Below, piece by piece: positions 42,516-51,500 of a DNA stretch of 64,000 nucleotides. The stretch is from Podarcis muralis. Its lineage: Eukaryota. Position numbers: made by a program. Position 1 is the first letter of the stretch; every line of letters starts with the position of its first letter. Where the stretch lies: contig NC_135662.1 in the NCBI RefSeq assembly GCF_964188315.1, positions 25,544,001 through 25,608,000 of the forward strand. Direction: 5' to 3'.

Positions 42516-45500
42516 CTAAGAGGAAAACTAAAAAATAATAAAACCATAAGACAGGAATTTAATAACTCAAAAATAATTGAAATAAACAGCTAAGCTAAAA
42601 ACAGACCAAAATGTTAACTTCTTCATGTCTGGAAAAACTTGCCTGAACAAAAATGTTTTAGCAGACACTGGAAAAAGTGCAGTGAAGGTGCTTGCCTGAT
42701 GTCAATAGGCATGGAGTTCCAAGTGTGGGTGCTGCCATGCAAAAAGATCTATTTTTTACCAGTGTGGTGCACCTGTAATAGCGCCAGTGCTGCGGACTGA
42801 ATTGACTGAATAGAAATATACGGGGTAAGGCAATTCCTGAAGTAAACTGTTTCCAACTGTTAAGGGCTTTACTGTATATACTAATGCTAACAGCTTGAAG
42901 TTGGTCCGGTAACAAACCTGCAATTGGTGCAGATCTCTGAGCAGGTGATATCTGCTGACAGAATCTCATTGCTGTCAGCAGGTGGACTGCAGCATTCTGT
43001 ACTCATGGTCAGTTGCCAGATCCAGCAAAAGGAAACACCACATAAACCAGACTGCAGTAATCCAGTCTTAAATAACAGCCACCTATGGCTTTCACTTCAT
43101 GCTTTCCAGTCGGGTCAGAGGTCGAACATGTGTTGCTTTCTTGCTTCCATCCCTAGTCAACCGACAGTCTTCCTGGAGAGTCTTCACTAACTCCAGTAAT
43201 TCTAGCTTTTCAAGCTGTGCCTGCTCCAGTTCTTGGTGATGCTGCCTCTCTGTTGCCAGCAGGGTACGTATGTCAGACGACATCCTGGACATCTGGCTCT
43301 GAAAAGCGTAAGAGAGTTTTTCAGGTGTTGCATTGGGACTGCCTGTTAACTGTTAGATGCTCACCATTTCCTATCTACACTAGTACCTCGGGTTAAGTAC
43401 TTAATTCGTTCCGGAGGTCCGTTCTTAACCTGAAACTGTTCTTAACCTGAAGCACCACTTTAGCTAATGGGGCCTCCTGCTGCCGCTGCGCTGCCAGAGC
43501 ATGATTTCTGTTCTTATCCTGAAGCAGAGTTCTTAACCTGAAGCACTATTTCTGGGTTAGCGGAGTCTAACCTGAAGCGTATGTAACCTGAAGCGTATGT
43601 AACCCGAAGTACCACTGTATTACATTTGTTTCTTCCCCTTCCTCCAAGGACCTGAGGGTAGCATACAGATAACAGAGCCTAGATTTCATGGATCTGCCCC
43701 TTTCAGGTATCCAGACTGCTGCAAAACAGATCTGTTTCTGCCCACTCTCCAAGGCAAGGGAAAGAGGCTGCATTGTCCTGGAATGACTTGGGCCCAGACC
43801 CAAATGCTTCTGTACCCAGAGTTTAGGGTAAAGCAAAATGTGCATGGGCATTCTGAGGGCTATTTCAATGATTGTGCTCTCCCTGTTATCCCAGTAAATT
43901 TGGGGAAAGAGAACTCGGCAGGTGGGGGATGTGTGGTAGGGAAAGCTCTTCTAGGCCAACTTGGAAGTAGTCTGATTTTTATTAATGGTCCATCTCCAAA
44001 TTAATATAATATTATGTTCAGTTTCAGTTTCAGTTTCTGTTAATTGGTTCTCGTGGGAAACTTGCAGATTCTGGCTTCTCACAATTAACTCAAGGTGGTG
44101 TCAATTTACTCTTGGCAGAAAGCCCAGGTCTGCTTGACCTAGAAACTACTCTGATTGGTTAACGACCAGCACTCTGCTCTGTTATCAAGGGATTGCTAGC
44201 TCAGTTTGAGGTGAGGTGTTGTTAGGAGTAGAAGTGCTGTGTATGGTTATGAGAGAGAGAGAGAGAAAGAGAGGATTTATTTTGTATTGTATTTGTATGC
44301 AGAAACTCTGCTGGTTTTATTTTCTCCTTTTAATAAATCCTGTAAATAGTTATTCTGAGTCTAGCTGACTAGTCATTACTGCCGCAACTAGCTTCTTCGC
44401 TGTGCAGGAAAACTCTGCTACGTTTGGGCTAAAGCCAGTAGGGCTATGCCTGACACTCCAAAGTTCCATGAGGTTATGGGCATTGTGCTGCCAGCCTGAG
44501 TTGCGGTGGTGTCAGCATCAACGGCGTTGGTTCCAGTAGTTCCAGAAGTTGTTGTTCCTGCTGGTGCAGCAGATGGACTCTGGCTGGTTCCTGACCGTGG
44601 TGAGCTGGTGACGCAGTGGACACAAGGACAACAGCTGCAGCGTGTGAGTGCTGGGTGCTGTGGTTCCTGTTTTCTCTCTCGGTGGTCGTGAGTAGCTGGT
44701 TCCGGGTTCCAGGGACATCGCTCTCAAGATGGCCTCACAACCAGTTCAGATGGCTTTTGAGCGTCTGAATGACTCCAATTACTTGCTGTGGTCGGAACGC
44801 ATGCAGGCAGTGCTGCAGAGGGATCGTCTCTGGCAAGTGGTGAGTAAGTTTCCTGCGAAGCCTGATGATGAAGACCTTGATAAAGACCAAAGAGCAAGGG
44901 CCACAATTGTCTTGGGGCTGGAGGATTCCCAGTTGCCGTATGTGAGGGGAATCAAGACAGCTAGAGGTGTGTGGCAAGCACTTAAAGAACTCCATGTGCG
45001 TGAGACAGCGGTTTCCAAGCTGTTCATTCGCAAGGCATTGTACAAGGCAATGTTACAGCCTGGGGTTACAATGCAGGAACACCTACACAGTTTACAGTTA
45101 AAGTTTGCAGCGCTACAGGAAAGAGACTGTGCGTTAGACCAGCAGGAGAAGGTGGCTATTATTCTGAGTTCTCTCCCGGAAAGCTGGGATAATTTAGTTT
45201 TGTCTCTAGAAGGCATACAGGAGCATGATTTATCCGTCAGTTACGTTACTGGGCGTTTGATTGAAGAATGGCAGAAGCGGCAAGAAAGGTCGTTGGCTGC
45301 AGAGGCTTCTACAGGTGGGCGGTTTGAAAGGAGTTCTCATGCCGTGCCAGAGGTGAAGCAAGAGCAGCGTGCCGGTGAGAAGTCAGCGTTTGCTGTTAGC
45401 CGTTGTTTCCGATGTGGGTCTTCAGCGCATCTAAAACGACAATGTCCGGAGTTGGTCAAGTCTCAGTTGCCGGTGCAGGAGCAGAGACGAGATCAGCAGC

Positions 45501-48500: not shown

Positions 48501-51500
48501 TTGCTAGCTCAGTTTGAGGTGAGGTGTTGTTAGGAGTAGAAGTGCTGTGTATGGTTATGAGAGAGAGAGAGAGAAAGAGAGGATTTATTTTGTATTGTAT
48601 TTGTATGCAGAAACTCTGCTGGTTTTATTTTCTCCTTTTAATAAATCCTGTAAATAGTTATTCTGAGTCTAGCTGACTAGTCATTACTGCCGCAACTAGC
48701 TTCTTCGCTGTGCAGGAAAACTCTGCTACGTTTGGGCTAAAGCCAGTAGGGCTATGCCTGACACTCCAAAGTTCCATGATATTAATGGGACTGGAGGAGG
48801 TTTGCCAGTCACCAATAGCAATGCTTCCTTGCTTATGTGAATTGTAGTTAAAATACCTGCTGCTGAAACCATTGGTTCTAAAATAGATGCTGTAGGTGAG
48901 ACTTCCCCAATTTGATGCTCCCCAGCTGTTGTTGGACTTCAACTCCCATCAGTCCCACCTGGCTTGGCCAGTGAGTGATGATGGGAATTGTAGTCCAAAT
49001 CACCTGGACAACACAAGGTTGGGGAAGGTAGCCGTCAGGTGCTTGAGGACTGTGGCTACCTTCTGGAAACTGAAAAAGAGTACAGCATAGAATAAAGCTG
49101 TCAGAAATACCAGTTCGCCAGAGGCAACATTTTAAGGGAGGGAGATGACCTCGTAGCTCATGGCAATACAATTCGTTTACCTTTAGCTCTTCAATCTGAT
49201 TTTGCAAAAGACTCTCCTTTTGCACCATATGCTTCCTTTGAGAATCTAGTCGAGATTCCATCTCATGTTTTGCCTCTTCCATCCGGCAGATCATCTCTGA
49301 CCTTAAAAAACAAAACACTTTTTGTTAATCAGCGTATCTGTCTTTAATCTGAATACAGAGGAAACTTGAAACGTACGCACATTCAGTTTTATGTGCTTGG
49401 CAATTATTATTTTTAAAGGGGGGCAAATGTCTGGGGGAAAAGACTGTGGCAATCCCTCCCGCCATTGTCTTATCTTACTGTTCATCCTGCTTTAATTTTG
49501 AAAAGGATTGCTTGGACTGAAACAAACAACATGCACCTGTTCATATGTAAGCTAAGTTAATACGCTGATTTGTTTCCGCTTGGGAGGAGGGCAGCTGGTG
49601 CAGCTGAACCGTGGGCCCCAGGAAATTGATCATTCACAAAAAGAGATGGTTTGTTTTAGATCAGGACTTACCATTATATGTGAACAGGGCCACTAATTAC
49701 CAAAACAGGAAGTAGTGTTTAATCCATCAGTTTTGCACTAATTATTCTCGTAACAAACAAGAGCTGGTTTTTTTAATCTTCCATCTGTTTTATGCAATAT
49801 CTGCGTCTTCCTTCGGCCCAAGATAAACATCTCATTTTAACAGCCCCAGCTTCACTCACAGGGGCATTTCCCATAAGCTAGTACTGGCAAAGAAGCTTTT
49901 CATTTATGATTAACTTAGATTTTCAGGTTACCACCAAGCAGCGCACAAGCTTATGTTACACAAAAAAGATGTCAACAAATCTTTTATTTCAATCGAATCA
50001 GGATGATAGAATACCAGGTGTAACTCGGGTGGGAAGATAGGAGGAAGAGATGGTGATGGCAATAGAAGCAATTTGCCAAGTTACCAAATTGGTTTCCTGA
50101 GCACCCAGGAAATTGCAGCAATATTGAAGAACAGTCCCCTTGTGTATGTTTTAGAGAGATGGGCAAAATATTTAAGTGTCAGTTCATGCTTTAGGCATGG
50201 CCACACTTGGCCCTCCAGATGTTTTGGGACCACAACTCCCATCATCCCTAGCTAACAGGACCAGTGGTCAGGGATGATGGGAGTTGTAGTCCTCAAACAT
50301 CTGGAGGGCCAAGTCAATCCATGAGCAGCCAAGGTAAGGGGAAGAATAGCTTTACCTGAGCAGTTCTAGTTCCGTTCTCAGCTCTGCCACACAGTTATGT
50401 TGCGCATCATCAGCACTGAGGATGGCATACCCACAGCCTTTGGGGCACTCGCGGCTCCTGTATTCGCACACTGCCAAGTGGCTGTCTAGGTTACGTCTTT
50501 CAACCCGAGCTGGGCAACCTGATTGGAAAGCAGAAGACTGGAGGAAGTGCACCAGAGAGAATTATTTCATTTCCCCCATAATCTTCTGACATGGAGACAA
50601 CGATAGACTGTGCTCCAGAGAGGTCACTTCAGTGCTGCTAATGCAGCAAAAACAATGTGGAAGGCAGCAGTGACAAGCTAGTGGTTTCTGCAGCCCCTGT
50701 GATTCTCCAGCAGTTTGACTTACCCCTAGAGGTGCACTCCATTGTCTCTCAAGACAGAAGGATGCTAACAACAGCAGCACCACCACTCTTGAGGAATCTA
50801 GGTTAGTGTTTCCTGCTGTGCGCAGGTACAAGGATTCTCCAAGGGGTCACTGGCACATCAGCTGCCTTTCAGTTCCCCAAACACCAACACTGAATCCATA
50901 CTTTGCTTTGGCTAGTGTTGGCAACAGGTAGAAATGGAACAGGAAGGGGTGTTCACACAGGCAAAGAAACCGAGAAGGCCCACTCTGCAACAGCCACTAA
51001 CTCTGAATTCCCTTTAGCCTACATTCCAGAACTGGGGGACTGAATTCAGGTGAAAACGGAGATCTACCATCTGTTTGCAAGATAACCATCTCTGCATTCT
51101 ACCTACCGCTATTTGAACAGGGGACCCGGCTGCATTCACACTCGCGTTCATGTCGGTCAATGGATTCCAGTGAACACACCATTTCACAGCCACACTCTCT
51201 GTTCCTGCAGTGAATCTGGAGTTGATTGAGATCGTTCTTCATGTATCTGGGTACAGAAGTTAATTATTTTTATTCTTGCAATACTGCTTGCTAAGATATA
51301 ACATATGCTCCCCAGTTCTCCGAGTGGTAAGACATTCCAGAGTCAGTGCTAACTGATTCTGTTTTCTTTGAATGAGGCCACATGGCAGACCAACCATGAC
51401 TGTGTAATATTTGGTTTAATTGCAAGTATACAGGCAGAGCACAGGCGAAGGTAAACAGCAGATCCCCAGAAAGGCAACTTGCACCACAAGGCATTTCTAG

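What the first reader, a model, noticed from the sequence alone, without database searches (positions are those of the whole stretch)
44015..48779. Very young copia element (identical LTRs) that lacks its RT catalytic core
Seen: the two 457-bp LTRs show no difference by eye, the TSD is intact, and gag, protease, integrase and RNase H read open with intact motifs. Yet RT jumps from ...GKDYDET directly to DLGPVRTYLG at a 5-nt microhomology (GACTT, 47403-47407), and no YVDD is present. Known: in copia RTs roughly 150 residues, including the catalytic YxDD, normally lie between these motifs. Inference: this is a non-autonomous deletion derivative produced by template switching and mobilised in trans by an active copia family, or it was deleted right after insertion. 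Copia elements are patchy in vertebrates and absent from mammals and birds, so a currently active lizard family is notable.
Basis: partly seen in the sequence, partly recalled or inferred. Interest (0 to 1): 0.65.

Follow-up and report, generated by a model that had tools for sequence, protein, structure and literature searches.

The report
Young defective copia retrotransposon in lizard
This is a recently inserted but broken copy of a copia-type jumping gene inside an intron of a wall-lizard gene, an ordinary kind of dead copy in a group of animals already known to be rich in such elements.

Summary
The element is real: two 457-bp LTRs identical at 457 of 457 sites, with a 5-bp target duplication (TATTA) on both sides. 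The domain order is copia-type: gag, protease, integrase, RT, RNase H. The RT catalytic core is absent. Pfam RVT_2 positions about 55-195 of 244 have no counterpart. In 78 intact relatives the unmatched span is 134-167 residues, median 139, and holds the DD pair in 78 of 78. No YxDD-type motif occurs in any of six frames, and no RT core lies elsewhere in the window.

The deletion also changes frame, so pol lies in three frames and RNase H is out of frame with gag-PR-IN.

The host is a lacertid lizard; a neighbouring gene matches Podarcis muralis in all six exons. The element lies antisense in that gene's last intron.

The origin of the lesions cannot be settled without other copies. Squamates are already reported as the metazoans richest in Copia (PMC11889832), so recent copia activity in a lizard is not new. 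Verdict: ordinary defective copy, low interest.

The parts
44010..44014 (.). Target-site duplication, left copy (TATTA)
   Evidence: the five bases before the 5' LTR equal the five bases after the 3' LTR.
44015..44471 (+). 5' LTR, 457 bp. Its ends are TG...GA. It contains a GA-rich microsatellite and an AATAAA.
   Evidence: 457 of 457 sites identical to the 3' LTR, with identity collapsing just outside.
44472..44728 (+). Untranslated leader. Its first bases are where a primer-binding site is expected.
   Evidence: sequence. PBS function was not tested. Only a 6-nt chance-level match to the one tRNA-like stretch in the window.
44729..48269 (+). gag-pol coding region, treated as one broken gene. 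It has 2 breaks, both in RT: 1 frameshift, and 1 internal deletion of about 140 codons that also changes frame. There are no other stops within the three open pieces.
44765..45292 (+). Gag (DUF4219 plus copia-type gag)
   Evidence: PF14223 at E 1.9e-33 and PF13961 at E 1.4e-06; solved 'Copia VLP protein' 8vvw at E 9.6e-18.
45401..45451 (+). CCHC zinc knuckle (weak match)
   Evidence: PF00098 at 16.5 bits, below its cut-off of 20.8. The C-C-H-C pattern is visible.
45593..45826 (+). Aspartic protease region (Pol_BBD), with the D-S-G site kept
   Evidence: PF22936 at E 6.2e-16. One search shows the aligned DSG.
46166..46855 (+). Integrase catalytic core and SH3-like domain. The catalytic D, D, E are kept. 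2 of 13 highly conserved core columns differ from relatives.
   Evidence: PF00665 at E 2.7e-11 and PF25597 at E 3.4e-21..
47150..48269 (+). Reverse transcriptase remnants plus the RNase H region, given as one part. RT lacks its catalytic core. The RNase H piece is open, with conserved acidic residues kept, but it is out of frame with gag-PR-IN.
   Evidence: The RNase H label rests on its position in copia polyproteins; there was no Pfam or PDB match.
48316..48322 (+). Short purine run directly before the 3' LTR (candidate polypurine tract)
   Evidence: sequence only.
48323..48779 (+). 3' LTR, 457 bp
48780..48784 (.). Target-site duplication, right copy (TATTA)
49181..49309 (-). Host RNF151-like gene: the exon upstream of the intron that holds the element (tblastn HSP bounds)
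   Evidence: P0152 residues 201-243, with the only mismatch at the first HSP residue.
43095..43304 (-). Host RNF151-like gene: last coding exon (tblastn HSP bounds)
   Evidence: P0152 residues 242-311, with mismatches only at the first two HSP residues.

Best explanation
This is one recently inserted, defective copy of a Ty1/copia LTR retrotransposon in a Podarcis-type wall-lizard genome. It lies antisense in the last intron of an RNF151-like RING-finger gene.

Shown: the LTRs are identical and a 5-bp target duplication is present. Gag, protease and integrase are still encoded in one open frame. The reverse transcriptase has lost about 140 codons, including the catalytic aspartates, and carries one more frameshift. 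This copy therefore cannot make RT, and its RNase H part is out of frame.

Inferred: the LTRs show no difference and the surviving coding sequence shows no decay. The two lesions, which lie close together in one domain, were therefore most likely already in the cDNA that integrated. Either they were inherited from a defective template RNA copied by proteins of an intact family member (a non-autonomous derivative), or the error-prone RT made them during the reverse transcription that produced this copy (dead on arrival). Either way the RT that made this copy was encoded elsewhere, or by an undamaged parent, and the copy cannot replicate on its own.
For: - Structure: (LTRs 457 of 457 identical, TSD TATTA).
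- Copia identity and domain order: six Pfam families in the long ORF; RVT_2 remnants; pieces map to residues 5-836, 846-893 and 1037-1317 of the intact relative P0001, 1321 aa; solved Copia VLP protein at E 9.6e-18; integrases.
- Missing core: (78 of 85 intact-length relatives matched all three pieces; unmatched span 134-167 residues, median 139). (16 of the 103 columns conserved at 90% or more fall in the missing span, including a DD pair present in 78 of 78 relatives). (no YxDD-type motif in six frames; 0 tblastn hits of 78 RT cores in the window).
- No decay elsewhere: (the element keeps 42 of 44, 11 of 11 and 32 of 32 highly conserved columns in its three pieces, 85 of 87 in all, against a median of 0.98 for intact relatives). 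(16 invariant columns in the last piece, including four acidic residues and K-H, all kept).
- Youth.
- Mechanism background: RT template switches need sequence homology between donor and acceptor (PMC6894440, passages). Most TE copies are inactive or non-autonomous (PMC3442997, abstract).
Against: - No second copy or solo LTR lies in the 64 kb (3 rows, all self or LTR-to-LTR), so there is no direct evidence that the lesions predate insertion or are shared.
- No close relative turned up in the protein database: best 33% identity for the long ORF (30 hits among 8000 scored) and 43% for the last piece (281 hits among 1446 candidates). An intact partner family was therefore not seen.
- The age bound still allows up to a few million years, enough for lesions after insertion.
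- The frameshift lies next to a short run of one base, so a sequencing or polishing error is not excluded.
- 2 of 13 highly conserved integrase-core columns differ. This could be a family trait or further damage.
Confidence: 0.6

Rival explanations
1. An intact, autonomous copy inserted here. The host genome damaged it afterwards, through a deletion by replication slippage or end joining plus a small indel.
For: Zero differences in 457 sites still allow an LTR divergence of up to 0.0066 (95%). That is up to about 0.8-6.6 million years depending on the assumed rate. Genomic deletions between short repeats are common (general knowledge).
Against: Two independent lesions would have to arise while neither LTR took a single substitution and 85 of 87 highly conserved coding columns stayed unchanged. 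Both lesions sit close together in one domain, which fits one complex event better than two random ones.
Confidence: 0.2
2. The lesions, or at least the frameshift, are errors of assembly or polishing, and the real locus holds an intact element.
For: The frameshift lies beside a short single-base run. No reads could be examined.
Against: A clean loss of about 140 codons with unique flanks is not what repeat collapse looks like; no internal repeat of 40 nt or more occurs in the element apart from the LTRs. The single-base run is short.
Confidence: 0.07
3. The element is old, and its LTRs were kept identical by gene conversion between them, so the LTR identity is misleading.
For: LTR-LTR conversion is known in principle (recalled, not checked in a paper).
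Against: The coding pieces together hold about 1,190 codons without a stop and keep 85 of 87 highly conserved positions. The TSD is perfect. An old element would show decay there.
Confidence: 0.03

Closest known systems
Ty1/copia (Pseudoviridae-type) LTR retrotransposons, for example Drosophila copia
   Same: Copia-type gag, with Pfam PF14223 and a match to the solved Copia VLP protein 8vvw at E 9.6e-18. Protease, then integrase upstream of RT, RVT_2-type RT remnants and a C-terminal RNase H region. LTRs with a 5-bp target duplication.
   Different: RT catalytic core absent, one extra frameshift, and pol in three frames. LTR ends are TG...GA instead of the usual TG...CA. Only 31-43% identical to the nearest database polyproteins.
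Squamate Copia elements (Mtanga clade, PMC11889832) and the copia insertion in corn-snake OCA2 (PMC4657000)
   Same: Host group: a lizard. PMC11889832 (passages) reports that only the Mtanga clade is found among Lepidosauria and that squamates carry very many little-damaged copies. PMC4657000 (passages) describes a 5,832-bp intronic copia insertion with RNase H, RT, integrase and gag domains. Its size and its intronic setting are similar to those here.
   Different: Clade placement of this element was not tested, because no reference sequence of that clade was at hand. This copy is 4,765 bp and lacks the RT core. Whether Podarcis was among the 24 squamates of that study is not in the main text (one search lists no such paper); the supplements were closed.
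Non-autonomous LTR retrotransposon derivatives copied in trans by proteins of autonomous relatives (plant examples such as LARD, TRIM and BARE2 are recalled, not checked)
   Same: Keeps the LTRs, the leader and the purine run needed in cis, but cannot supply its own RT.
   Different: It keeps most coding capacity (gag, protease, integrase). There is no evidence yet that it forms a family with several copies sharing the lesions.

Membership tests
Ty1/copia superfamily | Domain order gag - protease - integrase - RT - RNase H, with integrase upstream of RT | tested here: met
   The long ORF maps to residues 5-836 of intact relative P0001, the RT N-terminal piece to 846-893, and the last piece to 1037-1317.
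Ty1/copia superfamily | Copia-type protein families (Retrotran_gag_2, RVT_2) | tested here: met
   PF14223 at 115.8 bits (cut-off 27). PF07727 at 50 bits (cut-off 31.6) for the N-terminal remnant; the C-terminal remnant scores only 14.3 bits; solved Copia VLP protein.
Ty1/copia superfamily | Two LTRs in direct orientation flanked by a short target-site duplication (5 bp is usual for copia; this is recalled) | tested here: met
   457 of 457 sites identical, with TATTA on both sides.
Ty1/copia superfamily | LTR termini TG...CA (usual, not strictly defining; exceptions are described in the abstracts of PMC3701649 and PMC5659011, seen in the listing) | tested here: not met
   the LTR starts with TG but ends with GA.
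Ty1/copia superfamily | Primer-binding site complementary to a host tRNA. Drosophila copia uses a half-tRNA (PMC5371799, passage). | not testable with these tools
   No host tRNA set was available. ARAGORN finds no tRNA in the window. The one Rfam tRNA-like stretch shares only 6 nt with the leader.
Autonomous (self-sufficient) LTR retrotransposon | Uninterrupted gag-pol with the RT catalytic YxDD | tested here: not met
   two breaks in RT, core absent, no YxDD-type motif in six frames.
Mtanga clade of Copia | Placement of the RT/RNase H domain with the clade's reference elements in a tree | not tested
This is an expectation only, from PMC11889832 (passages: only Mtanga is found among Lepidosauria).
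Non-autonomous family mobilised in trans | Several copies at different genomic sites share the same lesions | not testable with these tools
   There is no other copy in the window and no vertebrate genome collection.

The most novel reading that the evidence does not exclude
The copy belongs to a still-propagating lineage of copia elements that lack the RT core in lacertid lizards. They keep gag, protease and integrase coding capacity and live as parasites on the RT of intact relatives. If so, the same lesions would recur at many polymorphic sites.
Probability: 0.2. Interest if true: 0.35.

Novelty: new member of a known kind. Interest (0 to 1): 0.15.

Why it matters
The matter is modest. The copy adds one well-delimited example of recent copia insertion in a lacertid lizard, a group for which I found no paper that names both Podarcis and copia elements in substance. 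One search returned 3 papers, and in the one whose passages I read (PMC4657000) Podarcis occurs only in the reference list. It could serve as a presence/absence marker in an intron of an RNF151-like gene.

If the lesions prove to be shared by other copies, it would document trans-dependent copia derivatives in a vertebrate. It does not change the picture of copia distribution, because squamates are already described as exceptionally rich in little-damaged Copia copies (PMC11889832).

Tried and rejected
- Second copy or solo LTR in the window: none.
- Close relatives or an intact partner in the protein database: none above 33% identity for the long ORF or 43% for the last piece. The named hits among the 120 listed are plants and arthropods, with no vertebrate.
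- Programmed frameshift as the reason for the first frame change: rejected. All 78 relatives that matched the three pieces are single intact-length proteins, and the flanking pieces map in order to either side of that region. The site also lies inside RT, not at a gag-pol border.
- RT core moved elsewhere in the window: rejected (0 hits).
- Copy of a spliced transcript as the origin of the deletion: considered. Nothing in the sequence supports it, and it cannot be tested without the parent.
- PBS against the only tRNA-like stretch in the window: a 6-nt match, meaningless.
- RNase H label by solved structures: 0 matches at E up to 1. By Pfam: none. By predicted fold: the structure tool was not accepting jobs, so this was not done.
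- My first YxDD pattern was too narrow, at 64 of 78 relatives. The column count shows DD in 78 of 78.
- PMC3787681 held 'copia' only in its reference list, so nothing was used from it.
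Full report
**What is there.**

- A direct repeat flanks the region. Base-by-base extension gives two copies of exactly 457 bp, at 44015-44471 and 48323-48779, identical at 457 of 457 sites. Identity drops to 6 of 30 and 11 of 30 immediately outside.
- The five bases before the first copy and after the second are both TATTA.
- The repeat starts with TG and ends with GA, not the usual CA. 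A short purine run precedes the second copy.
- The window has two N runs (4747-4874 and 30214-30354). Both lie far from the element and were left untouched.
- Nothing in the window was taken for human.

**Coding content.**

- From the ATG at 44729 an open frame of about 845 codons runs through several Pfam families:
  - copia-type gag (PF14223, E 1.9e-33; PF13961)
  - a weak CCHC knuckle (16.5 bits, below its cut-off)
  - the protease barrel (PF22936, E 6.2e-16)
  - the integrase core (PF00665, E 2.7e-11)
  - the integrase SH3-like domain (PF25597, E 3.4e-21)
- Against solved structures, the gag part matches the 'Copia VLP protein' (8vvw, E 9.6e-18) and the integrase part matches several integrases (23 distinct sequences at E up to 0.001).
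- The pairwise alignment with intact relative P0001 shows three sets of residues in place: the protease D-S-G, the integrase H-H-C-C, and the integrase D, D, E.

**The RT.**

- Translation of the 3' part of pol in the three forward frames shows that coding continues in a second frame for about 50 codons. It then continues in the third frame for nearly 290 codons to the pol stop at 48269.
- The short piece matches Pfam RVT_2 at profile positions 4-54 of 244 (E 3.8e-13, 50 bits, above the cut-off).
- The start of the last piece matches positions 196-242 only weakly (E 0.032, 14.3 bits, below the cut-off of 31.6).
- Against P0001 (1321 aa) the three pieces map to residues 5-836, 846-893 and 1037-1317.
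- Of 85 database relatives of intact length (1200-1500 aa), 78 matched all three pieces. In these the span with no counterpart is 134-167 residues, median 139.
- I aligned these 78 relatives and added the three pieces as separate rows. Of the 103 columns conserved at 90% or more, 16 fall in the missing span. They include one adjacent D-D pair present in 78 of 78 relatives.
- A YxDD-type pattern occurs 0 times in the six frames of the internal region. The RT cores of the 78 relatives give 0 tblastn hits anywhere in the 64 kb.
- pol therefore has two breaks, both in RT and close together. One is a frameshift in the N-terminal part. The other is an internal deletion of about 140 codons that also changes frame.
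The statement that RNase H 'reads open' is true of the piece itself but not of the polyprotein.

**State of the rest.**

- The element keeps 42 of 44, 11 of 11 and 32 of 32 of the highly conserved columns within its three pieces. That is 85 of 87, and intact relatives keep a median share of 0.98.
- The two departures both lie in the integrase core, 2 of 13 such columns there. They are not the catalytic residues.
- In an alignment of the last piece with 39 relatives, 16 columns are invariant. They include four acidic residues and a K-H pair, all kept by the element.
- I call this region RNase H from its position in copia polyproteins and from the domain list in PMC4657000 (passages). Pfam and the PDB sequence search gave no match, and the structure tool was not accepting jobs. 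The fold was therefore not tested.

**Host and setting.**

- An exon-like ORF on the minus strand carries a RING finger.
- Its 69-residue coding part is 100% identical to 'RING finger protein 151-like isoform X1' of Podarcis muralis (P0152). It is 96% identical to Tiliqua and 94% to Elgaria (286 hits among 287 candidates).
- P0152 was mapped to the window exon by exon with tblastn and gives six HSPs on the minus strand. All mismatches sit at the first residues of an HSP, where it overruns into the intron, so the exons proper are identical.
- The window is thus from Podarcis muralis or a very close relative.
- The element lies antisense in the last intron, between the exons at 49181-49309 and 43095-43304. 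The intron is 5,876 bp, of which 4,770 bp are the element plus one copy of the duplication.

**Age.**

- Zero differences in 457 sites give a 95% upper bound of 0.0066 for LTR divergence. That is under 6.6, 3.3, 1.6 or 0.8 million years for assumed rates of 0.5, 1, 2 or 4 x 10^-9 per site per year. The rates are assumptions, not measured here.
- 'Young' is supported, also by the lack of coding decay. 'Currently active' is not shown.

**How it most likely arose.**

- Shown: the copy cannot make RT.
- Inferred: neither LTR has changed, the remaining coding sequence is undamaged, and the two lesions sit close together. They were therefore most likely already in the integrating cDNA. There are two routes:
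  - They were inherited from a defective template RNA that proteins of an intact family member packaged and copied.
  - They were made during the reverse transcription that produced this copy. RT template switches are a known source of rearranged copies and need homology between donor and acceptor (PMC6894440, passages).
- I give these two routes together 0.6.
- The rivals are damage after insertion (0.2), an assembly or polishing error, chiefly for the frameshift, which lies beside a short single-base run (0.07), and an old element with homogenised LTRs (0.03).

**What stayed unchecked.**

- No other copy or solo LTR lies in the window.
- The protein database holds no relative closer than 33% for the long ORF or 43% for the last piece.
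- No vertebrate genome collection was available.
- These points therefore stayed unchecked: the census of other copies, the existence of an intact partner, the clade placement, and insertion polymorphism.
- The supplements of PMC11889832 (species list, copy numbers, trees) could show whether Podarcis was sampled and which clade its elements belong to. They were closed.

**Comparison with what is known.**

- Copia is reported absent from mammals and birds (PMC4350176 and PMC11889832, passages) and leaves no trace in the human genome (PMC5753468, passage).
- Within reptiles the picture is the opposite of 'patchy' for squamates, according to PMC11889832 (abstract and passages):
  - Copia was found in 23 of 24 squamate genomes.
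  - Squamates hold 66% of the 49,920 copies detected in 263 metazoan genomes.
  - Only the Mtanga clade occurs among Lepidosauria.
  - The method targets little-damaged copies, which indicate recent activity.
- PMC7561263 (passages) lists Copia among the LTR clades of Anolis carolinensis. It has a Copia row in its table of polymorphic insertions whose first figure is 1962; I did not see the column headings.
- PMC4657000 (passages) traces a corn-snake colour allele to a 5,832-bp intronic copia insertion.
- Defective and non-autonomous copies are the rule among transposable elements (PMC3442997, abstract).
- The finding is therefore a new member of a known kind and of low interest. The boldest reading still open is a propagating lineage without the RT core (probability about 0.2).

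Noticed in passing
window 43095-55745, minus strand: An RNF151-like / NRDP1-like RING-finger gene. Six exon matches are identical to Podarcis muralis protein P0152 (55671-55745, 53856-54062, 51105-51263, 50355-50522, 49181-49309, 43095-43304). The copia element fills 81% of its last intron, in antisense orientation.
   Followed up: partly
window 44015-44471 and 48323-48779: The LTRs end in TG...GA rather than the usual TG...CA and have no terminal inverted repeat. They also carry a GA microsatellite, a short 6-nt repeat at the 5' edge and an AATAAA.
   Followed up: no
window 46166-46447: 2 of the 13 columns of the integrase core that are conserved at 90% or more in 78 relatives differ in this element, while the catalytic D, D, E are kept. 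This may be a family trait or extra damage.
   Followed up: partly
window 3586-3657 (+), with a 48-nt tandem repeat at 3110-3208: Rfam reports a tRNA match (39.3 bits, gathering score 29), but ARAGORN calls no tRNA gene anywhere in the window. It is probably a tRNA-derived repeat such as a SINE head.
   Followed up: no
window 21143-22366 (+): A 407-codon open frame with an acidic start and no Pfam match. It looks like a large coding exon of a host gene rather than a transposon.
   Followed up: no
window 36041-36381: A GC-rich tandem array (periods 61 and 121, 80-86% matches) that is open in several frames on both strands. This explains the cluster of overlapping ORFs at 35911-36626.
   Followed up: no
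protein P0151: A 741-aa Polypterus senegalus protein scored 704 bits against the 69-residue RING exon. That implies many tandem copies of this RING module in one protein.
   Followed up: no
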